Positions 23,927 to 62,035 are shown, counted from the first letter of the stretch. The stretch: 64,000 nt of DNA from a candidate division WWE3 bacterium (GCA_052035175.1 JBPOHV010000001.1:523338-587337), one strand, 5' to 3'. Numbers and translations: made by a program. The notes: generated by a model from the letters alone, not told the origin.

Positions 23927-24001
23927 GGGGGTGTAGCTCAGTGGTAGAGCAGCGGCCTCTTAAGCCGCGTGTCGAGGGTCCGATCCCCTCCACCCTCACC
24001 A
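23927..24001 (+). tRNA. tRNA-Lys (anticodon CTT), CCA encoded; its 3' end serves as an integration site
   Basis: Acceptor gggggtg/caccctc (one G·U pair). D-arm gctcagtggtagagc. Anticodon stem gcggc/gccgc with loop ctcttaa. T-arm gaggg-tccgatc-ccctc. A -10 tataat lies at 23907-23912. Confidence 0.85.
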
Positions 24002-24018
24002 TTTAAACAAATTATTCC
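23982..24018 (+). repeat. Direct repeat DR-L (attL-like): tRNA-Lys 3' end plus 17-nt flank
   Basis: The 37-mer gatcccctccaccctcaccatttaaacaaattattcc recurs at 29658-29694 with 35 of 37 identical. Its first 20 nt also recur at 24130-24149. Confidence 0.7.
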
Positions 24019-24039
24019 GTTGTTACAATTTTATAGATG

Positions 24040-25446
24040 TTAAGTTATAGGTAAGGGATCGGATGCCGGACCCCGCTTAGCGGGGGAGGCGGGATCGACG
24101 GGCGAGCTAGCAAGCGAGAACCGGTGATCGATCCCCTCCACCCTCACCAATAGATGAGATGCGTTGTCCACGCCACCCTGCTTAAAGCGGAACAGCGTGC
24201 TTAAAGTTGGTGTTTTAAATCCCGGATATTGATAATAGAGGTTTTCAGGAAAAATAATCTTTTGTAGTTCTGTTTTTCTTTCGAACGACAGCTTTTCCCA
24301 CAGAGTTCTAGGATTTTGGTACAACCGAGAAATCTCATACTCAAATTTCGCATTTTCAAACTTTAAATTTTCGTTTTTATTTAATTTTAGATATTTACCC
24401 TTCGTGAGAAACAAAAGCGCGTTTACGGAGCTCCTAAGCGGTCTGATTTCATCTAGTAGTGACTTAAACTCAGACTCAAGAACATCTTTATGAACAGTTT
24501 TTCCTTTAGTTATGGGGTAATAGTATGGATAATGTTTTGTCTTGCCCTTGCACCAGGAACCAGTGAAGCTAGTATTAGATATTGCACACTTAACTAAAAC
24601 TCTTAATGGAAAGTCATCTTTTCTATAACTTTTGGGTTTACCAAGGGGTTTCGATGCCGCAAGTTTTTGTAATTTATCCCACTCATGGTCAGTAAACATA
24701 GCATCATGTTTTCCTTCGTAGATGTTTTCAGTCTTCTTAAATTTAATTACACCCTTGTAAAAGGGATTTCTAATAAACTTACCTACAAAATTGGAGCCTA
24801 CTTTTTTCCCACTTTTGGTTTTTATGCCACTTTCATTTAAATGTTTAGCAATTTCTTGAAAAGAGTAACTGCCTGTCAAATATAGATGGCCAGCATCCTT
24901 TAGTATCGAAAAATTTGGTTCATCTCTTATCGGCACCCTATGATCTTGACCTATATGCTCTAATCTATATCCAATTGGAGGCACGCTTACCGGATAACCT
25001 GCTTGAACGCGCTTTTTTATACCGTCACGGGCCCGCTCAGCTCTAATTGCATTATCTAGTTTGGCTTGGGCAGCAATTAACGTTTCAATAAACTCCCCCA
25101 TAGGTGTATTATCCGTAAACTCTGTAGCTGACTTAATAACTACGCCATAATCTTGTAATCGTCGTTTTATGTCTAAATAATCAATTGTGTTGCGTGATAG
25201 CCGATCTAGTCTGTACACAATCAAGTGTGTTATTTTACCTTTAGATTTTCTGCAGTACTCCAGTAGTCTTATAAGTTCTGGGCGTTCCGCAGTTGCTGCC
25301 GATTTTCCTTCATCTCGAAATATTTCAATAATTTCAAGCTCCTGTAATGCACTGTAGTTACGACAGTAATCTTCCTGATTTGATAACGAAAAATTATTTA
25401 CTTGTTCTTCACTGCTTACTCGGAGATAAGCTATAGCTTTTTTCAT
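24040..25446 (-). CDS. Large serine recombinase (resolvase/invertase catalytic domain + recombinase domain)
   Basis: 468 aa. Catalytic serine motif (AIAYLRVSSEEQ). DEGKSA, LIVYRLDRLSRN and the dimerisation helix are present. The C-terminal ~35 aa are Pro/Ser/Ala-rich and are encoded by a GC-rich segment that contains the extra att-core copy at 24130-24149. Confidence 0.8.
   Translation of the reverse strand: MKKAIAYLRVSSEEQVNNFSLSNQEDYCRNYSALQELEIIEIFRDEGKSAATAERPELIRLLEYCRKSKGKITHLIVYRLDRLSRNTIDYLDIKRRLQDYGVVIKSATEFTDNTPMGEFIETLIAAQAKLDNAIRAERARDGIKKRVQAGYPVSVPPIGYRLEHIGQDHRVPIRDEPNFSILKDAGHLYLTGSYSFQEIAKHLNESGIKTKSGKKVGSNFVGKFIRNPFYKGVIKFKKTENIYEGKHDAMFTDHEWDKLQKLAASKPLGKPKSYRKDDFPLRVLVKCAISNTSFTGSWCKGKTKHYPYYYPITKGKTVHKDVLESEFKSLLDEIRPLRSSVNALLFLTKGKYLKLNKNENLKFENAKFEYEISRLYQNPRTLWEKLSFERKTELQKIIFPENLYYQYPGFKTPTLSTLFRFKQGGVDNASHLLVRVEGIDHRFSLASSPVDPASPAKRGPASDPLPIT
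24130..24149 (+). repeat. Third copy of the 20-nt tRNA-Lys 3' end (gatcccctccaccctcacca) inside the recombinase C-terminal coding region
   Basis: Exact 20-nt match to 23982-24001. It is not part of a foldable tRNA. Confidence 0.6.
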
Positions 25447-44058: not shown

Positions 44059-44691
44059 TTAAGGAGCGTAATACGCATCCTTAAGTGTAAAACAGGGGAG
44101 TCTGGGAGACTCGCCCTTTGGACCATCAAAAGAGATGGTCGGTACCTGTACTTTGATGGCTGGTTGCCCAGCCACATCGTACAGAGTGTAGGTCTGCAAC
44201 AGTGCAGACCCAGGTTTCAACGTGACATTCCCTATTGTCACGTTCTCACCAACAAGTGCGGCATTAATGCCGACATAGTTGGTTGAGGAATAGATCACAG
44301 TATCCTTGGTGTCCAACACCAAGACTTCAATACTGTAGTCAATTTGCCCATTGCTTGGGCAGCGATATTCCGCGGTTTGCGAAGCATCGCGAACCGACCC
44401 CAGGTACTTGCGTACCACAATCGTGTACCCTTGACTTAACAAGGAGTCGATTGTTTCGTTGGTCACCGGGACTGACGTGGTACTGTTAATGAAGGTAGTG
44501 CCTTCTGTACCAGCCTCCGGTGTTTCGGTCGGCGCGACCGCGGTAGCGGTTGCGCTTTGTGATTGCTGGGTTACGGTCGCAGATCCCGGGAGGGGATCCA
44601 CAAAAACCGGGCGGTTAATAAAAATCCAACCACCTGACGAAATCAGCACCAGCAAAATAATGGACCAAAAAAACCGAGTCGAGCGTTTCAT
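44059..44691 (-). CDS. Hypothetical secreted/membrane-anchored protein in a GC-rich island
   Basis: ORF 44059-44739. The likely start is MKRSTRFF (44691), followed by a TM segment. Local GC is ~50% versus ~35% genome-wide. Thr/Ala/Pro-rich linker. Confidence 0.45.
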   Translation of the reverse strand: MKRSTRFFWSIILLVLISSGGWIFINRPVFVDPLPGSATVTQQSQSATATAVAPTETPEAGTEGTTFINSTTSVPVTNETIDSLLSQGYTIVVRKYLGSVRDASQTAEYRCPSNGQIDYSIEVLVLDTKDTVIYSSTNYVGINAALVGENVTIGNVTLKPGSALLQTYTLYDVAGQPAIKVQVPTISFDGPKGESPRLPCFTLKDAYYAP

Positions 44692-44933
44692 TTTTTTCTC
44701 CTTTATGAGAAGTGCTTTTAGCTTATTGGGAAGCCCCACTAAGCTAAAAAACGATTTGTTTTGATAAGAACAATTATACTATAGGATAGACATTCCGTAA
44801 AGACCTTTGTGATATAAAAGATACTACTTTATATTATAGCTACGCCATTTGTTGACTATTTGAGTAAATCAACGTAACCTATAATTAATGCCACTTTTCA
44901 TCAAATTTTCACTTTTTAAGGGGGTGAAAATAT

Positions 44934-45917
44934 ATGAATAAATACACTTTTTTTGTGTTCTCTTTACTCTTAGCAGTAACTCTAGGCCCTACAGCATACG
45001 CAACAACAGACTGTACATTCACTACACTAGGCACAATAATGACTTTGGACAACGATTGTACAACTGATGAAACACTTGTAATACCAGATGGATACACCTT
45101 AACAGGTGACCATAATACTATTACAGCTGTTGACCCAGTCGGAGGACATTTCGAAGGCGCTGTTGTTATGAATGGTGGAACTACCGCATACATAGAACGC
45201 GTTATAGTCTCTGTAAGTGGGTTGGCTGATGTCTGTGATGCTGGTGCAGAAAGATTGAGAGGCATTATGTTTGAAGGTGCTTCAGGATCTATCCTATACA
45301 CTAGGGTAATTGGAGTTAATCAAGGACCAAGTGGTTGCCAAGAAGGTAACGCAATCGAAGTACGCAATGCTCCTTTTGATGGATCTCACCCAAACACAAT
45401 GACAGTAGAAGTAGCACATAACAGAGTCGAAGATTATCAAAAGACAGGTATTCTTGCTAATGGAGATGTAAACGTAAATGTACATCACAACACAATAGGT
45501 GCTTCTGCAACTCAAGCTAATCTAGCTGCAAATTCTTTGCAATTAGGGTTTGGCGCGCTAGGTAGTGTCATGAATAATGCTATTAAAGGTAATCAATGGC
45601 TAGGTGCGAGTGACTTTGCATCCACAGCTATGCTGATTTACGCTTCAGACGTAGTAGAAGTTGCATACAATGCAATTTCTGGTAATTCTGATGTAGGAAT
45701 GTATGTGATTACAAATGATAGTTCGTTCCATGACAATACTGTATACGACCTTGGACCTGATGCAGCACACGGCGATTATGGGATTTTTGATGATGGTACA
45801 GGAAACTCTTATGTTAATAACATAATAAGAGGGTTCGTCGTGCCATTTGAAAGTTCTATGTTGTTAGTAGAAACTTTGGCTCCTACAATATCACACAATG
45901 TGATGGCGTTTGAGTAA
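44934..45917 (+). CDS. Secreted right-handed parallel beta-helix repeat protein
   Basis: 327 aa. Signal peptide. Repeated PbH1-like units (HNTITA..., AHNRVEDY..., HHNTIGAS..., YNAISGNSD...). Confidence 0.55.
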   Translation: MNKYTFFVFSLLLAVTLGPTAYATTDCTFTTLGTIMTLDNDCTTDETLVIPDGYTLTGDHNTITAVDPVGGHFEGAVVMNGGTTAYIERVIVSVSGLADVCDAGAERLRGIMFEGASGSILYTRVIGVNQGPSGCQEGNAIEVRNAPFDGSHPNTMTVEVAHNRVEDYQKTGILANGDVNVNVHHNTIGASATQANLAANSLQLGFGALGSVMNNAIKGNQWLGASDFASTAMLIYASDVVEVAYNAISGNSDVGMYVITNDSSFHDNTVYDLGPDAAHGDYGIFDDGTGNSYVNNIIRGFVVPFESSMLLVETLAPTISHNVMAFE

Positions 45918-53581: not shown

Positions 53582-53646
53582 AGCATAATAATATCACCCG
53601 TAACAACACAGTACTGTACTAATGAACAAGTTGTTATACTAAACAC

Positions 53647-55077
53647 ATGTACAAACAAGCTACGCTTACATTACCCGAATACCCATCACTAGAAACCGGC
53701 ACACAGCTTGATAAAGCAACTATTGAAGCCGCATTGGGTACTACGGCAGTTAGGAGTATAAATGCACAACTGCAAATGAATACTGAAGTTATGGTTATTG
53801 GTAGCACAGCGCTTGTTGCCACTGTTAATGCAATCCCAACAGATATCACGCGCACACGTTTGCCTGAAACCGAAGCAGATACCGATATATATACATCAGG
53901 TATCGACATACTTACGCCAGATGCGCATTCTCTAGCTGAGCTTCGTGAGTATAGGGCTGCAGCACTTAGTGACTTACAAACTACAGGCATTAATATGCCA
54001 GAAGAGGTCGACGATATAATCGACAGGTTGATTCAAATGCAGCATGAGGTCAACCTCCAAGATTTTTGCCGTACAGAATTTCTTTTTGCACATGAAACAC
54101 CTGCCTTAATAGTACAAAAAGATATACAAGGTGAAACCAACTATCATTGTTTTGATCCGCTAAACGTACTTTCACAAACCCAAGCGCATAATTTACAATT
54201 TACACATACACACAACATGCCTTTACTGCAAACAAACACACAAAGCATTAAGTTTGCCTACTTGAAAACCTTAGCTTGCAATCATAAATTTCAAGCACAT
54301 ACTATGGCTGCTTTGTGGGCGTTAGAATCAATTCCTAGAAGTATAAAAGCACAGGCAGAATTAAACCTTACACCAGATTTTGATGATCCAAGAATTTTAC
54401 CAAGCCAAATTCTAGCCAATCGGATAGCCAATGGCGATAATGTCGTGGCAACCACGCTTCACATTAACGACAAAACAAAAAACATAGACACGTACTTGTG
54501 GTTTAAACAAAGAGTCTTGCGCAATTATGGACAGGCGTGCGCGACCGATCCTGCTACGGCGTTCAAAATGTTTGTCGACTATCCACTATTGGGCATGCTA
54601 TCTCAAGATGCTTTAGCAGAATTACCAGACCTAGGACCAGTTCACATCGATACTAATGATGCCCCAATAAACACAATAGAACTTGCAAATACCATCAGCA
54701 AAAAAACTGATAAAACCTTGCTAAAATATCGAAAACTAATTAATTATTATTACGGTGGAAAGTATATAGATATCAATAATGCTACAGGAAATACCATAAC
54801 CAAGACCTACAGTCGCGAAACACATCCTACGTCTATCAATGAACCCATTGCGCTGCTAATTGTAGCTTTGGGTTGGGATACTAATAATACTGAAGATATG
54901 GATAAAGTGAATCGCCTTGTGCAAAACTGGCAACAAACAGTTGGTACACATACATACGATACTTTTTGGAAAAATGAGAAACGAAGTTTTGATCTAACAA
55001 TGGACAGTACCTCAATAGTAGAGCTAGTTAATGATATCAAGCAAAACCCTGATAAATATTTACAAGAAGTCATATGA
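53647..55077 (+). CDS. Hypothetical protein (476 aa), first gene of a two-gene module
   Basis: No recognisable domain and no TM segment. Overlaps the downstream ORF by 4 bp. Confidence 0.5.
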   Translation: MYKQATLTLPEYPSLETGTQLDKATIEAALGTTAVRSINAQLQMNTEVMVIGSTALVATVNAIPTDITRTRLPETEADTDIYTSGIDILTPDAHSLAELREYRAAALSDLQTTGINMPEEVDDIIDRLIQMQHEVNLQDFCRTEFLFAHETPALIVQKDIQGETNYHCFDPLNVLSQTQAHNLQFTHTHNMPLLQTNTQSIKFAYLKTLACNHKFQAHTMAALWALESIPRSIKAQAELNLTPDFDDPRILPSQILANRIANGDNVVATTLHINDKTKNIDTYLWFKQRVLRNYGQACATDPATAFKMFVDYPLLGMLSQDALAELPDLGPVHIDTNDAPINTIELANTISKKTDKTLLKYRKLINYYYGGKYIDINNATGNTITKTYSRETHPTSINEPIALLIVALGWDTNNTEDMDKVNRLVQNWQQTVGTHTYDTFWKNEKRSFDLTMDSTSIVELVNDIKQNPDKYLQEVI

Positions 55078-56300
55078 AGTTAATAACCAAACCTTTTTCT
55101 GAAAATAAAATAGCAGAGTTCAAAAATAAAATCTTGACACGATCTGCACAACTTCAAAACGTTACACTAAACTTTATACCAGGTACGGGTGTTACATCTA
55201 TCTTGAGTTACTTATTAAGAGAAAGACAGAATATAGGAGAGTACACTCAAAATCATCTCTTTATCTTAATTAATGTTAATAAATTCAATATCAACTCAGA
55301 TCAAGAAATACAGCGAGCTGTAAGCATCATACAAAATATGTACAGTAATGACATTGCATTTCGCTTGGACTTATCTGTATATAACGTAAATGATCTAAAT
55401 GCATTTAAGAACCTTATTCATGAGCTTACTTTTAAACATAAATATGAACTAACGTTTATGTTTACTGAAGCTGCTTCTTTATTTTTTTCAAAGTCAACGA
55501 CACTGCATGAGTTATACGAGATATTGAAAATCAACCCCATGCTAACATCTGGGGTATTTTTTAATATATTTGAGTACGATGATGCTGATATCAATAGGCT
55601 AGGGGAGTTGGCATCATTTTTTATACAAAATATTGAGTACTACAATGCAACTGATACATACTCACTAAATGCATACGTTCAAAATCAAGTAGCCTTCTTA
55701 TCCAAAACCTACAATAAGACGTTTATTAATAAATTAATTGATCTTTGCGATACAGATGCAAAGACTTTTAAACATGCTATAGATTTAGCAAATACCGAAG
55801 ATGACTTTGACAATAAATTCCTGAACTCAACTAATGTATACCACTTGCTCAACCCAGACTGGCTTAATACTAGATTTCAAGCAATTGTAAAAAACTTAAA
55901 ACCAGCATCCAAATCATGGTTGCAAACTGGTAAAACTAACCCAACAAAATTTTTACTCAAAACAAACTTTGTTACACCGATTAATTCAACATATCAGCGT
56001 TTTAATAAATTGTTTGAAGAATTTATAAAAAATGCCGATCTGGAAACAACAACCCGTAATGTAGCTGATACACAGCTTAGTGGTATTGAACAACTGGTCT
56101 TGGAATTTTTACTAAAGAATGAAGGCCAAATTGTATCCAAAACCGATATAGCCAAAATTTTATGGCAAAACTCTTGGGAAGAAAAGTATTCGGAATGGGC
56201 GATTGATAAGTTTTTATCACGGCTTAGATCTTCATTGTCGTCAATTAATTACAAAAAGGCGTTAAAAACTGTAAAAGGTAAAGGCGTTATTTTGGCCTAG
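55074..56300 (+). CDS. Hypothetical protein with a C-terminal OmpR/PhoB-type winged-helix DNA-binding domain
   Basis: 408 aa. C-terminus LSGIEQLVLEFLLKNEGQIVSKTDIAKILWQNSWEEKYSEWAIDKFLSRLRSSL...LKTVKGKGVIL matches the Trans_reg_C pattern. N-terminal GTGVTS may be a degenerate P-loop. Confidence 0.5.
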   Translation: MKLITKPFSENKIAEFKNKILTRSAQLQNVTLNFIPGTGVTSILSYLLRERQNIGEYTQNHLFILINVNKFNINSDQEIQRAVSIIQNMYSNDIAFRLDLSVYNVNDLNAFKNLIHELTFKHKYELTFMFTEAASLFFSKSTTLHELYEILKINPMLTSGVFFNIFEYDDADINRLGELASFFIQNIEYYNATDTYSLNAYVQNQVAFLSKTYNKTFINKLIDLCDTDAKTFKHAIDLANTEDDFDNKFLNSTNVYHLLNPDWLNTRFQAIVKNLKPASKSWLQTGKTNPTKFLLKTNFVTPINSTYQRFNKLFEEFIKNADLETTTRNVADTQLSGIEQLVLEFLLKNEGQIVSKTDIAKILWQNSWEEKYSEWAIDKFLSRLRSSLSSINYKKALKTVKGKGVILA

Positions 56301-56428
56301 ATAAAGCATAAACTGCCCACATGTCAGGAATAGTCAAATGGGAAATACCCTATAGTATTATTATTTTCTTATCAATTTAAACAACTCCCGCTACGGCGGG
56401 AATCAATGTTCATTAAAGGAGTTAATCG

Positions 56429-56779
56429 ATGAACGGAATTCATATTGGAGATGTAGTCTCAGTTGCAAGACAGGAGGACTTTGTCCGCTTAAATGTGGAC
56501 AAGATTTATCTGCTACTTGCACCTAAAAGCTTGACTGGAAAGTTTTATTCAGAAACCTCTGTGGTTTCTGTAGAAGACATTCAGACGGCTGGGAGACAAA
56601 AAGTCGATGATCACTTTCAGATTGAAGCCATTGAAGTTAGTGGTGAATATCTGTTTTGTGTTTATTACGAGTATGAAGACACACCAATTTCTATGGTTGC
56701 ATTGTCTCGTGATCAGGTGCACAACCTGTTTCTCACACTGCAACTGCAGCTGATCTTTCTCGCAGGAGGTGCGAAATGA
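56429..56779 (+). CDS. Hypothetical protein (GC-rich islet)
   Basis: 116-aa ORF. Local GC is well above the genome average. Confidence 0.35.
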   Translation: MNGIHIGDVVSVARQEDFVRLNVDKIYLLLAPKSLTGKFYSETSVVSVEDIQTAGRQKVDDHFQIEAIEVSGEYLFCVYYEYEDTPISMVALSRDQVHNLFLTLQLQLIFLAGGAK

Positions 56780-57243
56780 TTGCAAAACTGAAAGAAAACA
56801 AAGGCGAGCTCCTGCTCGCTGCTGCTTTTCTCGTGCTGGTAGGGGTTGTTGTATGGCTGAGTTTTCAACTCTACATTTTGTCCCCATCAACAGAGGCGTG
56901 CAGTCAGTCGAGAGGGCTCGGTTATGTCTCTTCATCTGCTTTCCGCGATGGAAAGCAGGTATATGAGATTGAATTCCTAGATGCTGATGAAGCAATCAGC
57001 ATCAACGCTGTTACCAACAACGGTATTCCCCAAGAATACTGGTTTGGTAGCACCAAACGATTTGTAGTCAACGAACAGGACACAGTTGTAACTGTCGTTG
57101 TCAAAACTCCAAATCGTTGCCGGGATGGAGTCCAAAGCACTACGTACGTTTTTGTCCCTCGGGAAGAGAGCACACCGTGGCGCTTGGCGTTCATGATTTG
57201 GGACGATGCTTCCAATCAAATGCCCCCGATGATTGTTCGGTAG
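56776..57243 (+). CDS. Hypothetical membrane-anchored protein (GC-rich islet)
   Basis: 155 aa with an N-terminal TM helix. GC ~50%. Overlaps the previous ORF by 4 bp. Confidence 0.35.
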   Translation: MIAKLKENKGELLLAAAFLVLVGVVVWLSFQLYILSPSTEACSQSRGLGYVSSSAFRDGKQVYEIEFLDADEAISINAVTNNGIPQEYWFGSTKRFVVNEQDTVVTVVVKTPNRCRDGVQSTTYVFVPREESTPWRLAFMIWDDASNQMPPMIVR

Positions 57244-57340
57244 CTCCTTTGTCCACACGTCTGGCTATATGCCAAATGCTAAATCCAGACTTTGTCTGCG
57301 TGTGGAACTCATATTTATAATATATAATCACTGTAATAAC

Positions 57341-57742
57341 ATGAACGACTCTTACACATGGTACTCAACACTAATCAAACCATCTTGGGCACCACCCAGT
57401 TGGGTATTTGGTCCAGTTTGGACATTTTTATACATCATAATCGCAATAACATTTGGACTAATCTTTTATAAATGGCTTGTAGGAAAGCTAGCCTGGCAAG
57501 TAGCTTTACCATTTGTTTTAAATATACTCTTTAACTTTGCATTTACACCCATTCAATTTGGTCTCAAAAACAATATGTTAGCGGCAGCAGACATCACGTT
57601 GGTTTTAGTCACACTAGTTTGGGGATTGATTAGCATTTCGAAATATATGCGCTGGATCGTATTTGCAAACTTACCTTACTTAGCATGGGTGCTTTTTGCA
57701 ACAATACTACAATTTTCAATTACTTATTTAAATAAAGGATAA
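57341..57742 (+). CDS. tspO: TspO/MBR family tryptophan-rich sensory protein
   Basis: ORF 57233-57742 with the start moved to MNDSYTW. Signature W..LxKPxWxPPxWVFGPVWTxLY. Confidence 0.7.
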   Translation: MNDSYTWYSTLIKPSWAPPSWVFGPVWTFLYIIIAITFGLIFYKWLVGKLAWQVALPFVLNILFNFAFTPIQFGLKNNMLAAADITLVLVTLVWGLISISKYMRWIVFANLPYLAWVLFATILQFSITYLNKG

Positions 57743-58143: not shown

Positions 58144-58901
58144 ATGTATATCTTGATTTAGGATTAATATTGGCAGGTTACGCAGTATGCTGGTTTCTTT
58201 TCTCAATAATACTCAAGCGTATGGATATAGCAGATATTGCTTGGGGACTAGGCTTTATTTTAATAAACTGGTATATATTTTTCATTAGCGGAAGTAGCAT
58301 AAAAGGGCTCGTTGTTAATATATTGATCTCTATTTGGGGCGGAAGATTGGCATTTCATATTTACAAAAGAAATCACAACAAACAAGAAGATGCGCGTTAT
58401 GCAGAATGGAGAAAATCGTGGAAACATTTTTATTTACGAAGCTTTTTGCAAGTTTTCTTGCTTCAAAGTTTTTTGATCTATATCATTTCACTTCCAGCTA
58501 TTTTTATTAATTTGAATAATTCTGTTGTAGACATATTTTTAGTCTCTGGAGTAATAGTTTGGATAGCGGGGTTTTATTTTGAAACAGTAGGCGATAAGCA
58601 ATTAGCAACTTTTATAAAGAATCCAGAAAATAAAGATAAAATTATGACTAGTGGACTTTGGAGATATACAAGGCACCCAAATTATTTTGGCGAAGTAGTA
58701 ATGTGGTGGGGAATATTTGTATGCAGTTTGGGGATACCAAATGCTATTTTTACTATAATCGGGCCTTTAACCATTACGTATCTCATTCTCTTTGTTTCGG
58801 GAATTCCGCTTTTGGAAAAAAGATATACCGGCAATACCGAATACGAATTATATAAAAAAAGAACCAGTGCCTTTATACCATTACCTCCAAAATCTGTATG
58901 A
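58140..58901 (+). CDS. DUF1295 / steroid-5alpha-reductase–ICMT-like membrane protein
   Basis: 253 aa, multi-TM. Hallmark GLWRYTRHPNYFGE. Confidence 0.6.
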   Translation: MNVYLDLGLILAGYAVCWFLFSIILKRMDIADIAWGLGFILINWYIFFISGSSIKGLVVNILISIWGGRLAFHIYKRNHNKQEDARYAEWRKSWKHFYLRSFLQVFLLQSFLIYIISLPAIFINLNNSVVDIFLVSGVIVWIAGFYFETVGDKQLATFIKNPENKDKIMTSGLWRYTRHPNYFGEVVMWWGIFVCSLGIPNAIFTIIGPLTITYLILFVSGIPLLEKRYTGNTEYELYKKRTSAFIPLPPKSV

Positions 58902-59407
58902 AAAAGAAAATCGTATTTGTAAATGATTTGATGCAAAATGACTATTCATATGAACTAGTAGAACCCATTGGTAAAAACTTTGACCCATTGTTTAAACCAG
59001 AACTATCACCACAAGAAATGCTTGAACTAGGCGTATTTGGTGGTAAATATATGACTGATTGTATAGACGAATTTCCAAGAGCATGGTTTCAAAATGCCAA
59101 ACTATGTCGTGAATTTCATAACCCCAATTTAAATTACTTTGAGATTAATGCATCACAACCTTTGAGTGTGTGGCGTAAAATGGGATGGATATACGACGAA
59201 GACCCACGTGGATGGTTTCAGTGGTATTGTAGATACTATTTTGGTCGAAGAATTCCACCTGAAGACACAAGGCAAATCAAAAGATGGCGTGCAATAAAAA
59301 GACATATTATTCAGTTACAAAAGAATTGTTTGCCAAAAGATTTAGCGTGTAGAAAAAAGCAGCAACAAGCAATTTTGCATTGGGCTTATGATAGTAGAAA
59401 AATATGA
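58898..59407 (+). CDS. Hypothetical protein
   Basis: 169 aa, Trp/Arg-rich C-terminus. No recognised motif. Confidence 0.4.
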   Translation: MKKKIVFVNDLMQNDYSYELVEPIGKNFDPLFKPELSPQEMLELGVFGGKYMTDCIDEFPRAWFQNAKLCREFHNPNLNYFEINASQPLSVWRKMGWIYDEDPRGWFQWYCRYYFGRRIPPEDTRQIKRWRAIKRHIIQLQKNCLPKDLACRKKQQQAILHWAYDSRKI

Positions 59408-59468: not shown

Positions 59469-60272
59469 ATGAGGCTTTTAACATATTTACATGATCCTGA
59501 TGATTTATACATACCTTTACTTACAAATCTTGTAATACCTGAGGAACTTAAAGATTCAATTATTGCGATATCACCAACAACTACCGATAAAGTTCGTAAA
59601 CTAGTCAACACGTTAAGTCTCAAAGAAATTGAAGGTGGTACTTACGGGACTGCGCGCATAAATTTACTAAACGAGCATATAAAGTCAAAAGAAGCTGGGG
59701 ATGCATTTGTGTGTGATTTTGACAAAGTAATACACTGGCTTAATACAAATAAAAGCGAATTTTTGCAAACTTTCAATCAACAGTACACTGTTGATTTAAC
59801 TATAGTTGGAAGATCTGTCAAAGCTACAGCAACCTATCCACATTCTTGGATTGATACAGAAAGTATTGCTACGCGCATACTCGCTAAAATTATAAGGCAA
59901 AACCTCGACTTTATGAATGGACCAAGTATATTGAGCAATAAAGCTGCAAATATATTTGCCAAAAATGCAAATGAAACTGGAGTAGGATCATGCGTAGAAT
60001 TTTGCCTGTTGGCACATACAAATAACCTATCAATAAATACTATAGAGGTAGATGGATTAACATGGGAAGACCCTGATAGATATAAAGAAATGATACAACA
60101 AGCTTTAACATATGAAGATTGGAAATATGATGTGTACGACTCTTTATATGAATGGCGAAAACGGGTTGAATTTTTGAATAAACAAGTCGAAGTAATGATT
60201 AGATACTCAGAAGAGCCAACAAATCCAAAATACCCACTCGTTCATAACAAAACAATAGAAAATACTAGATAG
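59469..60272 (+). CDS. Hypothetical protein
   Basis: 267-aa ORF with no recognised motif. Confidence 0.4.
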   Translation: MRLLTYLHDPDDLYIPLLTNLVIPEELKDSIIAISPTTTDKVRKLVNTLSLKEIEGGTYGTARINLLNEHIKSKEAGDAFVCDFDKVIHWLNTNKSEFLQTFNQQYTVDLTIVGRSVKATATYPHSWIDTESIATRILAKIIRQNLDFMNGPSILSNKAANIFAKNANETGVGSCVEFCLLAHTNNLSINTIEVDGLTWEDPDRYKEMIQQALTYEDWKYDVYDSLYEWRKRVEFLNKQVEVMIRYSEEPTNPKYPLVHNKTIENTR

Positions 60273-60283
60273 AAATTTCAAAA

Positions 60284-62035
60284 TTATTCTGATTGACTCG
60301 ACGTAAGATTTCTTTTATTTTTTGGTATACGATTATTTTCGCGATATACACTAATATCATCTCGAACCCACCCAGGAATAACTGCAACACGCACAACATC
60401 GTTACCGTCTTCAGTTTTACCTTTACCAGTATACAAATAGCTAAAACTGTTAACTGTTGATTTAATTAATGGCTTCTCAATAGGTGCAGTGTCGGGGTCG
60501 TCTAAACTTGTAGCAAGCTCTAATATACTACTCATTCTCAAAGACCCATCATCTTTAATACCATACCCAGAATTATGTCCCCATTCACCCGGCCAAGTAT
60601 AGTTATAATGCTTAGCCAAACCCGCACCCAATGACATAGCACGTACCCACAATTGTCTAAATTTTGAACTTCCCTCAGAAGCTTTACCGTGTTGTGTTTC
60701 TAGATAAGCTTGACCATAAGCACCAGTTTGTTCCAAAAACTGTTTTTCTCGAAAAGCAGGACTTGAAAAATCGTTGGCACTAAAATAAAAGCACTCACTT
60801 TTTATTTGTTCTGCCATTCGATCAACGACAAACCCAGGTAAAGCACCAGCAGTGTAAGACGTCATACCAAGCAATGTGGTGTCATATAAATCAAAGTCTT
60901 CACCAAAGGCTGTCTTTAGTACAGCTAATTGAGACTCAGTCATGGGTTGTGTTACATCACTTTCAACGAATGCGTACTTACCAGTGATCCATGGGTACTT
61001 TTTTTCCATCTCTTTATATTTTACTTTACCACCTTCTAATTGACCGACATTTATATCTCTAACAACGACCCGAAAGTTATCAATCATTTTTTGTCTTCTA
61101 ACAGGGTCATCTATAGTATCGATTTGTTCAATCATCGCGGCAGCAGAATTACCCACACCCCCAGCATAATCAATAATTGTGATTTGAGAATCAGGAGTTT
61201 CATCTAATACCATTTCAACATTGCTCATTAACCGTTTAGCCAGCTCAATTCTTCCCACTTGGTCTTGTGATATCCAATATTCTTTCGGCTCAAGCATAGT
61301 CTTATCTAGTAAAACAGTGTTATACAAACCAAGATATTTCTTATTATAAACTGTACCTGTAACAGCAATTGGACCTTCTACTGCTACATCCTGGGATTGA
61401 TTCATAAGTTCTGACATATCTGTCCCAACCAAATCTTCTGGAATAAACCCAACCATTTGAGCATGATATGCCTCATAACCAGATTGTAGCGCCTTGTATA
61501 AATCAACTCCAGGAACCCAATCGTTTAGAAAAGCTCTCCATGATAACTCTACTTGACTATTTGCACCGTGTCTCAAAACAATACCTTCGTTTTTCATAGC
61601 CCAACTAGAGATCTTCAAAGCAGCTAAAGTCATGTACTTTTTAACTATATCTTTTGCTTCTGTAAAAAACACACCTTTTATTTCATTTAAAAGTTTTGTA
61701 TTTAATAAAGCAGCAGCTTGTTCTTCCAACTGTTCACCAGTAATTCTTTGTTGTCTTAATTCAGCAGGTATATCATTCTCAGTAATAAAAAGCGCGGAGT
61801 CGAGAGTTATTGGATGATCTCGTGTAGTACCTTCATCAACATTTGCAGAATGACGCTGTCTACTTAAACGGCCATCTAACAAACTCTTTACGGTAGCCTC
61901 AGAGAATATTTCTGTAGCTGGTACTTGTCCACGTTCGATGTTTAAAGGAGCAAAACCAGCATGAATAAGTGATCGATAAGAGTCTAATGGATCTGGACCT
62001 TCTTGGTTATGAAGTTCTATAGTTGTTTCTACCAT
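60284..62035 (-). CDS. Large hypothetical protein with a class I SAM-methyltransferase-like motif I
   Basis: 583 aa. IIDYAGGVGNSAA resembles MTase motif I (hhDhGxGxG) embedded in large flanking regions. Confidence 0.4.
   Translation of the reverse strand: MVETTIELHNQEGPDPLDSYRSLIHAGFAPLNIERGQVPATEIFSEATVKSLLDGRLSRQRHSANVDEGTTRDHPITLDSALFITENDIPAELRQQRITGEQLEEQAAALLNTKLLNEIKGVFFTEAKDIVKKYMTLAALKISSWAMKNEGIVLRHGANSQVELSWRAFLNDWVPGVDLYKALQSGYEAYHAQMVGFIPEDLVGTDMSELMNQSQDVAVEGPIAVTGTVYNKKYLGLYNTVLLDKTMLEPKEYWISQDQVGRIELAKRLMSNVEMVLDETPDSQITIIDYAGGVGNSAAAMIEQIDTIDDPVRRQKMIDNFRVVVRDINVGQLEGGKVKYKEMEKKYPWITGKYAFVESDVTQPMTESQLAVLKTAFGEDFDLYDTTLLGMTSYTAGALPGFVVDRMAEQIKSECFYFSANDFSSPAFREKQFLEQTGAYGQAYLETQHGKASEGSSKFRQLWVRAMSLGAGLAKHYNYTWPGEWGHNSGYGIKDDGSLRMSSILELATSLDDPDTAPIEKPLIKSTVNSFSYLYTGKGKTEDGNDVVRVAVIPGWVRDDISVYRENNRIPKNKRNLTSSQSE

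What the first reader, a model, noticed from the sequence alone, without database searches (positions are those of the whole stretch)
53647..57243. Uncharacterised two-gene module (476 aa + 408 aa with C-terminal OmpR-type winged helix) followed by two GC-rich small ORFs
- The two large ORFs overlap by 4 bp, so they are translationally coupled.
- Neither has a recognisable catalytic domain. The second ends in a clear OmpR/PhoB-type wHTH. That position is unusual, since it is not preceded by a receiver domain, and it may have a degenerate P-loop N-terminally.
- They are followed by two overlapping small ORFs in a ~50% GC segment (56.4-57.3 kb) that looks foreign.

This could be a novel regulatory or defence cassette.
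Basis: partly seen in the sequence, partly recalled or inferred. Interest (0 to 1): 0.55.

Follow-up and report, generated by a model that had tools for sequence, protein, structure and literature searches.

The report
Conserved nucleotidyltransferase–regulator gene pair in CPR bacteria
The two large genes form a previously undescribed pair that always occurs together in ultra-small (CPR) bacteria: a likely RNA-tailing enzyme distantly related to the one that finishes tRNA ends, next to a DNA-binding switch protein whose ATPase motor is degenerate in this genome. The two small GC-rich genes behind them are unrelated neighbours.

Summary
P1 (53647-55077, 476 aa) and P2 (55074-56300, 408 aa) overlap by ATGA, and P2 ends in an OmpR-type wHTH (Pfam 38 bits).

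Neither protein is an orphan. Exhaustive HMMER found 14 P1 relatives and 41 P2 relatives. The pairing is conserved in 11 of 11 distinct loci, examined from both sides.

P1 founds a family with no Pfam match. D78, D80 and E150 are invariant in 15/15 members, after a G-S motif. Its model matches only class II tRNA nucleotidyltransferases, and weakly. It is probably an active Polβ-fold nucleotidyltransferase.

P2 is a STAND/ORC-like AAA+ module (2qen, Orc/Cdc6, CED-4) plus wHTH, with no sensor repeats. Walker A, Walker B and GxP are all degenerate in this genome.

No defence family, defence island, phage or plasmid link was found.

S3 and S4 are real genes with atypical GC and Shine-Dalgarno sites. 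They are absent from other P1-P2 loci but present in a related strain, where S4's ectodomain is hypervariable.

The most likely mechanism, which is inferred, is an RNA 3'-end nucleotidyltransferase held in check and regulated by its DNA-binding partner. This is AbiE/MenAT-like in logic but not in homology.

The parts
53601..53646 (+). Candidate promoter and operator of the P1-P2 operon. Inverted repeat TAACAAC (53601-07) / GTTGTTA (53630-36) enclosing the palindrome ACAGTACTGT (53608-17). -10-like TATACT at 53635-40, 6 nt before the ATG, implying a leaderless mRNA.
   Evidence: Read from the sequence and the inverted-repeat scan. Most genes in the window have a TATAAT-like box directly before the start codon and no SD. 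No motif is shared with other loci above chance, so the operator role is only a candidate.
53647..55077 (+). P1, 476 aa: founding member of an unannotated nucleotidyltransferase-like family.
   Evidence: ORF. No Pfam, NCBIfam, PADLOC or PHROG hit. 14 distant relatives by exhaustive phmmer. AF2 model pLDDT 77.7, pTM 0.81. The top 12 Foldseek PDB hits are all class II tRNA NTases, best E=0.03, prob 0.98.
53800..53892 (+). P1 NTase motif A: G52-S53 after strand 47-51, a ~24-residue insertion, then D78-T-D80 at the start of strand 80-83.
   Evidence: D78 and D80 are invariant in 15/15 members. G-S is kept in 12/14. hhalign puts this segment in register with GGxVRD of CCA enzymes, P=0.034-0.054. 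Secondary structure.
54094..54096 (+). P1 E150, the putative third catalytic carboxylate (motif h-E-[TAG]-h-x-h-x-h-x-[RK]) at the start of strand 153-158.
   Evidence: Invariant in 15/15 members. Position relative to the strand.
54325..54363 (+). P1 helix ESIPRSIKAQAEL, resembling the motif D region (EDxxRxLRAxRF) of class II NTases.
   Evidence: R231 is conserved in 14/15. The second hhalign alignment matches RMIKAxAEL to RAIRxAxEL, P=0.13, colinear with the motif A match. This is weak evidence.
54829..55074 (+). P1 conserved C-terminal alpha/beta domain (MSEVMA...GWD...NW.P.G...WK...F). Function unknown; a candidate RNA- or P2-binding domain.
   Evidence: W428, W441 and F448 are invariant in 15/15. 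pLDDT >90 over 390-440.
55074..55077 (+). ATGA overlap of the P1 stop and the P2 start (translational coupling).
   Evidence: Coordinates. The same 4-bp overlap occurs in L038/L039 and L042. Other co-directional loci have 3-20 bp gaps or a 44-bp overlap.
55074..56300 (+). P2, 408 aa: STAND/ORC-like AAA+ module (NBD, helical domain, winged helix) fused to a C-terminal OmpR-type wHTH.
   Evidence: AF2 model pLDDT 90.5. Foldseek: 2qen E=8e-8; Aeropyrum ORC1/2, Cdc6, ORC4, CED-4, Dark, MuB, DnaA at 1e-5 to 1e-7. Family members hit AAA_22, NPHP3_N, ATPase_2, NACHT, AAA_16 and nSTAND1.
55182..55199 (+). P2 degenerate Walker A, G37-T-G-V-T-S42 (Lys replaced by Val).
   Evidence: Family consensus is F-[PR]-G-[SA]-G-K-[TS]. 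Lys is present in 23/39 and the canonical motif in 14/39.
55455..55472 (+). P2 degenerate Walker B, F-M-F-T-E-A (acidic residue replaced by Thr).
   Evidence: Family consensus is hhhh-[DE]-N-F, with D/E in 26/39.
55752..55760 (+). P2 position of the STAND 'GxP' motif. T-D-A here against G-D-P in the family.
   Evidence: D in 37/39 and P in 36/39 family members; the window protein is one of the exceptions.
56070..56297 (+). P2 OmpR/PhoB-type winged helix (aa 333-408). Recognition helix YSEWAIDKFLSRLRSSL at 56187-56237.
   Evidence: Pfam PF00486 at 38.1 bits. NCBIfam response-regulator C-termini. PDB PcoR, ArlR and others. 39/39 family members carry it.
56382..56405 (.). GC-rich hairpin (CCCGC-TACG-GCGGG core) in the 128-bp P2-S3 spacer. 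It probably separates the P1-P2 unit from S3-S4.
   Evidence: Terminator-like scan and sequence. It is conserved in L049. There is no U-tract on the + strand, so terminator function is uncertain.
56429..56779 (+). S3, 116 aa: small cytoplasmic protein with a strong SD (AAGGAG). A neighbour, NOT part of the conserved module.
   Evidence: ORF and SD. Its 90%-identity cluster has 3 members. Absent from all other P1-P2 loci.
56776..57243 (+). S4, 155 aa: N-terminal membrane anchor plus a two-cysteine ectodomain, SD GGAGG, 48% GC. A neighbour, NOT part of the module. The ectodomain is hypervariable between strains.
   Evidence: In L049 the first 36 aa are identical and overall identity is 50%, while the flanking DNA is 95-98% identical.

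Best explanation
Window 53647-56300 is a conserved, chromosomal two-gene cassette. So far it has been found only in Patescibacteria/CPR-type genomes and unclassified metagenome contigs.

Shown:
- P1 belongs to an unannotated protein family whose only absolutely conserved polar residues are D-x-D and a downstream Glu, preceded by G-S. Its predicted fold matches only class II tRNA nucleotidyltransferases (A-adding, CCA-adding, PAP type).
- P2 is a sensor-less STAND/ORC-like AAA+ module (nucleotide-binding domain, GxP helical domain, winged helix) fused to a C-terminal OmpR-type DNA-binding winged helix.
- In this genome Walker A, Walker B and GxP are all degenerate.
- Every P1 relative examined sits next to a close P2 relative, and every close P2 relative examined sits next to a P1 relative.

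Inferred:
- P1 is an active, template-independent nucleotidyltransferase that extends RNA 3' ends. tRNA acceptor ends are the most likely substrate, given its nearest structural relatives.
- P2 is made in fixed proportion to P1 through the ATGA overlap. It binds DNA through the wHTH to set expression of the operon, and it binds or gates P1. Its decayed nucleotide pocket acts as a binding module or scaffold and not as a motor.
- The logic is that of nucleotidyltransferase-toxin / wHTH-antitoxin modules (AbiE, MenAT). In those, a tRNA-modifying NTase is restrained by a DNA-binding partner and released under stress or infection. The proteins here are not homologous to those families.

The small genes S3 and S4 are unrelated neighbours.

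The confidence given is for the whole statement including the inferred mechanism. The anatomy alone (conserved pair; P1 a Polβ-fold NTase; P2 a STAND/ORC-like module plus wHTH) I would put at about 0.8.
For: Pairing:
- P1-side look-ups covered P0050, P0003, P0032, P0037, P0046 and P0025, confirmed by hmmsearch.
- P2-side look-ups covered P0004, P0005, P0006 and P0009, confirmed.
- With the window, that is 11/11 distinct loci. Nine are co-directional P1>P2; three of those have a 4-bp overlap.

P1 as an enzyme:
- D78, D80 and E150 are invariant in 15/15 members at ~23% mean identity.
- The motif sits at the same N-terminal position in all 12 full-length members of the first alignment.
- The model shows the alpha-beta-[GS]-alpha-beta[DxD] layout.
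- The Foldseek PDB top 12 are all class II tRNA NTases (prob up to 0.98), whereas the viral library gives nothing above prob 0.35.
- Two colinear hhalign matches fall on motif A and the motif D helix of a CCA/A-adding profile.
- The P1 triad stays intact even where the partner's P-loop is dead (window K>V; L037 partner K>E). So P1 activity does not depend on P2 hydrolysis.

P2:
- Structural and domain evidence.

Accessory, self-contained nature:
- Flanking genes differ in every locus.
- L048 carries two P1 paralogs.
- The family is rare: 57 clusters among 1.84 billion representatives.

Precedent:
- NTase toxins acting on tRNA 3' ends with wHTH partners are described in PMC7450476, PMC10435456 and PMC3985639.
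- Patescibacteria already have canonical CCA enzymes (L013). P1 is therefore an extra enzyme.
Against: - There is no biochemical data. The class II NTase link is weak (Foldseek E=0.03, TM 0.35; hhalign P=0.03-0.13; no HMM hit to PDB or Pfam).
- P1 lacks the RRD motif and the Asp of EDxxR, so neither the substrate nor the nucleotide can be inferred.
- Against a toxin-antitoxin reading: P1 is large (476-640 aa); the putative toxin gene comes first; 2/11 loci are convergent (L037, L048), which is unusual for TA operons; there are no PADLOC hits for proteins, family members or neighbours; there is no mobile-element association.
- Against simple autoregulation: the recognition helix is almost invariant across the family, yet no shared upstream motif was found.
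- The mirror-tree correlation is not significant (r=0.32, p=0.12).
- The low inter-member identity is not clearly faster than that of housekeeping proteins between CPR lineages (27-45%).
Confidence: 0.45

Rival explanations
1. A dedicated regulator plus an accessory RNA-tailing or RNA-repair enzyme. P1 is a non-toxic poly(N)/3'-end-tailing enzyme (PAP-like) used in RNA turnover or repair. P2 is simply its transcription factor, in the way RtcR controls rtcBA. No protein-protein restraint is involved.
For: P1's nearest structural relatives include poly(A) polymerases and A-adding enzymes. The context is chromosomal and housekeeping-type, with no defence or mobile-element signal. Convergent arrangements in L037 and L048 are compatible with a regulator-target pair.
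Against: A 4-bp overlap or very tight spacing in 9/11 loci suggests stoichiometric co-production, which is not typical for a regulator and its enzyme. Distribution is rare and patchy for a useful RNA-metabolism function. No shared operator was found. An AAA+/STAND scaffold of ~320 aa is a lot of protein if only a DNA-binding domain is needed.
Confidence: 0.25
2. A nucleotide-signal pair. P1 synthesises a nucleotide-derived signal (as CD-NTases/cGAS do). The decayed nucleotide pocket of P2 is its receptor, converting the signal into a transcriptional response through the wHTH.
For: The G-S...D-x-D...E triad is shared with signalling NTases. The P2 pocket repeatedly loses its catalytic residues while the GxP and overall fold are kept, as expected for a ligand sensor. 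P2 has no other sensor domain.
Against: No CD-NTase, SMODS or cGAS-like structure appears among the Foldseek hits, and there is no PADLOC CBASS hit. The window P2 has lost even the P-loop Lys and the GxP, which argues against any nucleotide-type ligand binding.
Confidence: 0.12
3. A STAND-type anti-phage sensor. P2 recognises a phage component, oligomerises like Avs/NLR proteins and activates P1 as an abortive-infection effector.
For: P2 resembles CED-4, Dark and NRC2 and hits NACHT and nSTAND models. The cassette is accessory, context-independent and duplicated in L048.
Against: There are no C-terminal sensor repeats. The NTPase motifs are degenerate in most members, which is incompatible with ATP-driven oligomerisation. 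A DNA-binding wHTH is not a feature of Avs/NLR sensors. No defence-island context and no PADLOC hits.
Confidence: 0.08
4. P1 is not an enzyme. The G-S/D-x-D/E pattern and the fold match are coincidental, and the pair is a structural or regulatory complex without catalysis.
For: All links to known NTases are statistically weak: Foldseek E>=0.03 and TM ~0.35, hhalign P>=0.03, and no HMM-level hit.
Against: Three acidic residues being the only invariant polar positions across 15 proteins at ~23% identity is hard to explain without catalysis or metal binding. They also sit at the strand positions expected in a Polβ fold. The PDB hits are coherent (12/12 from one enzyme class), unlike the viral-library control.
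Confidence: 0.08

Closest known systems
Class II tRNA nucleotidyltransferases / poly(A) polymerases (PF01743: CCA-adding, A-adding, PAP I; PDB 3wfo-3wfs, 1miv, 4x4w)
   Same: They are the only coherent structural matches to the P1 model. P1 has an N-terminal helix-strand-G[GS]-helix-strand-DxD core with a further carboxylate. It has a helix resembling the one after motif D. It is a large, mostly helical protein of similar size.
   Different: No HMM-level similarity. A ~15-residue insertion lies between G-S and D-x-D. There is no RRD motif, no Asp of EDxxR and no HD domain. The C-terminal Trp-rich alpha/beta domain is distinct. P1 is always paired with a wHTH protein. The host lineage already has a canonical CCA enzyme.
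AbiE and MenAT nucleotidyltransferase toxin-antitoxin systems (DUF1814 toxin; AbiEi/MenA partner)
   Same: A two-gene module of a Polβ-fold NTase plus a partner with a winged-helix DNA-binding domain. The known toxins modify tRNA 3' ends. The genes are tightly coupled.
   Different: No DUF1814, AbiEi or PADLOC match. P1 is about twice the size. The gene order is reversed. The partner is an AAA+/STAND-wHTH of ~410-450 aa with the wHTH at the C-terminus. Two loci are convergent.
STAND-family transcription regulators (MalT/LAL; AfsR/SARP-type with OmpR wHTH + BTAD + NB-ARC + TPR)
   Same: A STAND-type nucleotide-binding oligomerisation module is combined with a DNA-binding domain. AfsR-type proteins also use an OmpR-family wHTH.
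   Different: In P2 the wHTH is at the C-terminus, not the N-terminus. There is no BTAD and there are no TPR/SUPR sensor repeats. The NTPase motifs are decayed in most members. P2 is restricted to CPR genomes.
Archaeal Orc1/Cdc6 and the PF01637 'archaeal ATPase' (2qen)
   Same: These are the best structural matches to P2 (E 1e-6 to 8e-8). The order is the same: AAA+ base, helical lid, winged-helix DNA-binding end.
   Different: P2 has a GxP (STAND-type) motif instead of the sensor-2 GDAR motif. It has an additional OmpR-type wHTH after the internal winged helix. It has no role or context suggesting replication initiation.
OmpR/PhoB response regulators
   Same: The C-terminal Trans_reg_C domain is above the Pfam threshold.
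   Different: No receiver domain, no phospho-acceptor Asp and no cognate histidine kinase nearby.

Membership tests
Polβ-superfamily nucleotidyltransferase fold | h-G-[GS] motif followed by [DE]-h-[DE]-h on the next strand | tested here: met
   VIGS(52-53)...DTDI(78-81). D78 and D80 are invariant in 15/15; G-S is kept in 12/14.
Polβ-superfamily nucleotidyltransferase fold | Third catalytic carboxylate on a following beta-strand | tested here: met
   E150 is invariant in 15/15 and sits at the start of predicted strand 153-158. The catalytic role itself is inferred.
Polβ-superfamily nucleotidyltransferase fold | Structural superposition on a solved NTase core | tested here: inconclusive
Polβ-superfamily nucleotidyltransferase fold | Nucleotidyl-transfer activity | not testable with these tools
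   Needs biochemistry.
Class II CCA-adding / poly(A) polymerase family (PF01743) | Pfam PolyA_pol match at or above the gathering score | tested here: not met
   No PF01743 hit at E<=1 in any of 15 members. The family profile finds no PDB sequence at E<=10.
Class II CCA-adding / poly(A) polymerase family (PF01743) | Motif A GGxVRD...DxD with a short spacer | tested here: inconclusive
   hhalign aligns the GS segment in register (P=0.034-0.054). However, the R-D is absent and the spacer is ~24 residues.
Class II CCA-adding / poly(A) polymerase family (PF01743) | Motif B RRD and motif D EDxxR | tested here: not met
   No conserved RRD in the alignment. The motif D-like helix keeps R231 (14/15), but the Glu is variable and the Asp is absent.
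AbiE / MenAT NTase toxin-antitoxin | DUF1814 (AbiEii/MenT) toxin domain | tested here: not met
   No Pfam or PADLOC hit for P1 or any family member.
AbiE / MenAT NTase toxin-antitoxin | AbiEi/MenA-type antitoxin encoded upstream of the toxin | tested here: not met
   The partner is an AAA+/STAND-wHTH encoded downstream of, or convergent with, P1.
AbiE / MenAT NTase toxin-antitoxin | Toxin inhibits growth; partner neutralises it | not testable with these tools
   Needs expression experiments.
STAND NTPases | P-loop NTPase domain with Walker A and Walker B | tested here: inconclusive
   The family consensus has both. The window protein has K>V and D>T. Only 14/39 members keep a canonical Walker A.
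STAND NTPases | Helical GxP module followed by a winged helix | tested here: met
   G-D-P is nearly invariant in the family (D 37/39, P 36/39); it is T-D-A in the window protein. The model has a helical domain at 195-272 and then a helix/hairpin unit at 277-320. Foldseek hits CED-4, Dark and NRC2.
STAND NTPases | C-terminal sensor repeats (TPR, WD40, LRR) | tested here: not met
   The protein ends with the wHTH at residue 408, and no repeat domains are found in Pfam or in the model.
OmpR/PhoB response regulators | N-terminal receiver domain with phospho-acceptor Asp | tested here: not met
   Only the C-terminal ~80 residues match response-regulator models. The N-terminal part is AAA+-like.
OmpR/PhoB response regulators | Trans_reg_C winged helix | tested here: met
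   PF00486 at 38.1 bits against a cut-off of 26.2, present in 39/39 family members.
Known anti-phage defence systems (PADLOC-DB v2) | Match of any component to a defence-system model, or a defence-island context | tested here: not met
   No hits for the four window proteins, for 15 P1-family members (best E=0.013, one member each) or for 10 neighbours in other loci.

The most novel reading that the evidence does not exclude
P1-P2 is a new, CPR-specific conflict or stress module. A nucleotidyltransferase descended from the tRNA CCA/A-adding enzyme lineage has been recruited to modify tRNA or RNA 3' ends. It is controlled by a sensor-less pseudo-STAND protein that also binds DNA. It may be one branch of a wider, fast-evolving 'AAA+-wHTH plus NTase-like partner' class in Patescibacteria. 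Distant P2 paralogs in 35 CPR genomes are typically followed by large unannotated genes, and at least four of those carry a G-[GS]...D-x-D motif.
Probability: 0.3. Interest if true: 0.75.

Novelty: new variant of a known kind. Interest (0 to 1): 0.6.

Why it matters
- CPR/Patescibacteria are a large share of bacterial diversity, have very few recognisable regulators, and cannot be cultured alone.
- This work gives a lineage-specific, strictly paired enzyme-plus-DNA-binding module with a concrete, testable catalytic hypothesis: three invariant carboxylates.
- If P1 tails tRNA or RNA 3' ends, it would be a second, independent recruitment of a nucleotidyltransferase for translation control. The first is the DUF1814 toxin group. 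P1 would come instead from the CCA-enzyme lineage.
- The P2 family shows repeated decay of a STAND ATPase into a pseudo-NTPase while it stays coupled to a wHTH. That bears on how NLR-like switches evolve into simple regulators.
- Both families currently lack any Pfam, NCBIfam or PADLOC model. The alignments made here could seed such models.

Tried and rejected
- Word-indexed homolog searches found only the query proteins. A profile search recovered only P0050.
- The P1 profile against PDB sequences gave nothing at E<=10.
- Two metagenome scans for P1 relatives and one viral-contig scan for P2 relatives produced pattern matches, but none was confirmed by tblastn.
- The GC-rich segment has no DNA match in plasmids or phages. 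P1 has no tblastn match in phages or plasmids.
- No direct or inverted repeats mark an island boundary around 52.5-58.5 kb.
- Defence hypothesis: PADLOC was negative for the proteins, the family and the neighbours.
- S3 and S4 as module components: rejected, because they are absent from all other loci.
- S3-S4 as a unique recent insertion: rejected, because the same arrangement, with its flanks, is present in L049.
- Shared operator: k-mer enrichment upstream of 10 operons is not above shuffled controls, and the inverted or direct repeats are locus-specific.
- Co-evolution by mirror tree: r=0.32, Mantel p=0.12, so inconclusive.
- Taxonomic placement of the window genome by best hits to named CPR loci: identities of 27-45% are too low for a phylum call.
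- One apparent P1-like hit among the paralog partners (L007) is an ABC ATPase and was discarded.

Full report
**Observation**

- P1 is 53647-55077 (476 aa) and P2 is 55074-56300 (408 aa). They share an ATGA stop/start overlap.
- S3 is 56429-56779 (116 aa) and S4 is 56776-57243 (155 aa), also with a 4-bp overlap.
- The only direct database hit is P2 residues 333-404 to Pfam Trans_reg_C (38.1 bits, cut-off 26.2). NCBIfam response-regulator C-termini and PDB wHTH domains support it.
- PADLOC, NCBIfam and PHROGs give nothing else.
- GC rises to 0.45-0.485 at 56.6-57.2 kb against 0.355 for the window.

**Host and context**

The window is a small-genome bacterial chromosome.
- It carries nine tRNAs, RelA/SpoT, a ClpB-type chaperone, LeuRS, an ABC-F protein and a Na+/H+ exchanger.
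- The proteins occur on a 925-kb NCBI contig.
- Most genes have a TATAAT-like box 5-12 nt before the start codon and no Shine-Dalgarno. P1 follows this pattern, with TATACT 6 nt before the ATG.
- S3 and S4 instead have AAGGAG and GGAGG sites.
- All named relatives of P2 come from Patescibacteria MAGs. The window genome is therefore probably a CPR bacterium, but this is an inference. Best hits to named CPR loci are only 27-45% identical.

**Neither protein is an orphan**

Word-indexed searches returned only the queries themselves. One exhaustive phmmer job, using P1 concatenated to P2 residues 1-324, found 57 proteins. These were 14 relatives of P1 (227-624 aa) and 41 relatives of the P2 N-terminal region (most 410-460 aa), plus the two queries.

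**The pairing is conserved**

- A genome scan with a P2 sub-alignment returned 35 CPR loci, and none had a P1-family gene within 10 kb. These loci score only 45-163 bits against the close-family profile, so they are distant paralogs.
- From the P1 side, every relative looked up lies next to a close P2-family gene. This covers P0050, P0003, P0032, P0037, P0046 and P0025, with partner scores of 160-517 bits.
- From the P2 side, the four closest relatives of the window P2 (P0004, P0005, P0006, P0009) each have an adjacent P1-family gene at 110-478 bits. L048 has two.
- Counting the window, that is 11 of 11 distinct loci.
- Nine loci are co-directional P1>P2: a 4-bp overlap in three, a 44-bp overlap in one, and 3-20 bp gaps in the others. 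Two loci are convergent (L037, L048).
- Flanking genes differ in every locus.

**P1**

- No member of the family hits any Pfam model.
- In an alignment of 15 full-length members (mean identity 23%), the invariant residues are D78, D80, E150, W428, W441 and F448. The G52-S53 that precedes them is kept in 12 of 14 members.
- The AF2 model (pLDDT 77.7, pTM 0.81) places G-S at the end of strand 47-51 before a helix. D-x-D sits at the start of strand 80-83, and E150 at the start of strand 153-158. This is the Polβ nucleotidyltransferase core layout.
- In Foldseek against the PDB, the top 12 hits are all chains of the Aquifex A-adding enzyme entries 3wfo-3wfs, a class II tRNA nucleotidyltransferase. 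The best has E=0.03, prob 0.98 and TM 0.35. The human CCA enzyme also appears. The viral library gives nothing above prob 0.35.
- I built a class II reference profile from a genuine CPR CCA enzyme (L013) and three PDB sequences. hhalign gives two colinear local matches. One is on motif A (P=0.054; P=0.034 against the single sequence). The other is on the helix after motif D (P=0.13). A control against the P2 family gives P=0.74 in an irrelevant region.
- Each link is weak on its own, and there is no HMM-level similarity.
- P1 lacks RRD and the Asp of EDxxR, so it is not a member of PF01743.
- My reading is that P1 is an active Polβ-fold NTase (about 0.8) whose nearest relatives are class II tRNA NTases (about 0.55).
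- Patescibacteria have canonical CCA enzymes, so P1 is an additional activity.

**P2**

- The AF2 model is confident (pLDDT 90.5).
- It matches the Pyrococcus Walker-type ATPase 2qen (E=8e-8), archaeal Orc1/Orc2/Cdc6, ORC4, CED-4, the Drosophila apoptosome, MuB and DnaA.
- Family members hit AAA_22, NPHP3_N, ATPase_2, NACHT, AAA_16 and nSTAND1, and all 39 carry Trans_reg_C.
- The domain order is: nucleotide-binding domain, helical domain with a near-invariant G-D-P, an internal winged helix, then the OmpR-type wHTH. There are no sensor repeats.
- NTPase motifs decay repeatedly in the family. Canonical GxGK[TS] is kept in 14/39 and an acidic Walker B residue in 26/39.
- The window protein is degenerate at Walker A (K>V), Walker B (D>T) and GxP (T-D-A). 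It is almost certainly a pseudo-NTPase.
- The P1 triad stays intact regardless of the state of the partner's P-loop.

**What it is not**

- It is not a known defence system and does not sit in a defence island.
- It is not found on phages, plasmids or viral contigs.
- It is not an AbiE/MenAT member, because there is no DUF1814 or AbiEi.
- It is not a response regulator, because there is no receiver domain.
- The searchable literature describes neither this architecture nor this pairing.

**Mechanism (inferred)**

- An active RNA 3'-end nucleotidyltransferase is co-produced with a DNA-binding pseudo-STAND partner. That partner sets operon expression and probably binds or gates the enzyme. This is the logic of AbiE/MenAT modules, in which tRNA-modifying NTases are restrained by wHTH partners (PMC3985639, PMC7450476, PMC10435456).
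- Several things count against a strict toxin-antitoxin reading: P1's size, the gene order, the two convergent loci and the lack of any defence signal.
- Against simple autoregulation, the recognition helix is nearly invariant, yet no shared upstream motif was detected.
- The window has a locus-specific candidate operator, TAACAAC-N22-GTTGTTA with the central palindrome ACAGTACTGT, overlapping the -10 box.
- The mirror-tree test was inconclusive.
- The rival explanations, each listed with its own test, are a plain regulator plus RNA-tailing enzyme, a nucleotide-signal pair, an Avs-like sensor, and a non-enzymatic P1.

**The small ORFs**

- S3 and S4 are real genes with strong SD sites and atypical GC.
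- They are absent from all other P1-P2 loci, and a hairpin-containing 128-bp spacer separates them from P2.
- A 1,260-bp contig from another metagenome (L049) matches window 56302-57566 at 95-98% identity, including the start of TspO. The exception is ~340 bp inside S4.
- The two S4 proteins share an identical 36-residue membrane anchor and both cysteines. They are only 50% identical overall.
- S3-S4 is therefore a resident feature of this lineage, with a hypervariable surface ectodomain. It is unrelated to the module.

**Wider lead**

- In the 35 paralog loci, the P2-like gene is usually followed on the same strand by a 450-700 aa gene. These genes have no Pfam match and little mutual similarity.
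- At least four of them (L002, L005, L024, L035) carry a G-[GS/D]...D-x-D motif. Several also give weak hhalign matches to the motif A region.
- An 'AAA+-wHTH plus NTase-like partner' theme may be general in CPR bacteria. The support is weak.

**Verdict**

- This is a conserved, undescribed two-gene module built from known superfamilies in a new combination.
- The catalytic hypothesis is clear, but the biological role is open.

Noticed in passing
window, genome-wide (e.g. 47947, 59469, 62084, 36329, 46847, 53647): Most genes have a TATAAT-like box 5-12 nt upstream of the start codon and no Shine-Dalgarno. This suggests predominantly leaderless mRNAs in this genome. The few genes with strong SD sites (S3, S4, 44934-45917) are also the GC-atypical ones.
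   Followed up: partly
window 56776-57243 (S4) vs L049:476-937: S4 is a small membrane-anchored protein. Between two strains, its 36-residue anchor and two cysteines are identical, while its ectodomain is only ~35% identical. The flanking DNA is 95-98% identical. This looks like a sharply bounded hypervariable surface protein, from diversifying selection or cassette replacement. It is not DGR-like, because the whole ectodomain differs.
   Followed up: partly
window 44059-44739 (-) and 44934-45917 (+): There is a 226-aa ORF at 50% GC (GC3 0.54), far above the 35% background. It has no Pfam or PHROG hit, and its exact sequence is absent from the protein collection. Next to it is a 40%-GC beta-helix protein with an SD site. 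This may be another foreign or mis-called segment.
   Followed up: partly
window 23927-25446: A large serine recombinase (Resolvase + Recombinase domains, 468 aa, minus strand, 24040-25446) lies directly beside tRNA-Lys (23927-24001). This is the typical signature of an integrated element at a tRNA gene. The element's extent was not determined.
   Followed up: no
L002-L036 (e.g. L002:11077-12162, L005:10222-11832, L024:6507-7973, L035:8269-9681): Distant P2 paralogs in 35 CPR genomes are usually followed by a large unannotated gene on the same strand. At least four of these carry a G-[GS/D]...D-x-D nucleotidyltransferase-like motif. This may be a wider class of AAA+-wHTH/NTase pairs with reversed gene order.
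   Followed up: partly
L048:4217-6139 (-) and L048:7393-9186 (-): One locus carries two P1-family paralogs (640 and 597 aa) next to a single P2 gene, both convergent with it. The pair has therefore been duplicated and rearranged.
   Followed up: partly
window 60284-62035 (-), 58898-59407 (+), 59469-60272 (+): Three further proteins of 583, 169 and 267 aa lie just downstream of the region and have no Pfam or PHROG match. The 583-aa protein is a singleton cluster in the 15-billion-protein collection.
   Followed up: no
window 53634-53990 (-): A 118-aa antisense ORF lies inside the 5' part of P1. It is most likely a by-product of the Ala/Thr/Ser-rich, higher-GC composition there, and it has no independent support.
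   Followed up: no
window 57341-57742 and L047:147-623: A TspO/MBR gene lies within a few kb of the P1-P2 pair both in the window and in L047. This is probably coincidence, because it is not seen in the other loci.
   Followed up: no
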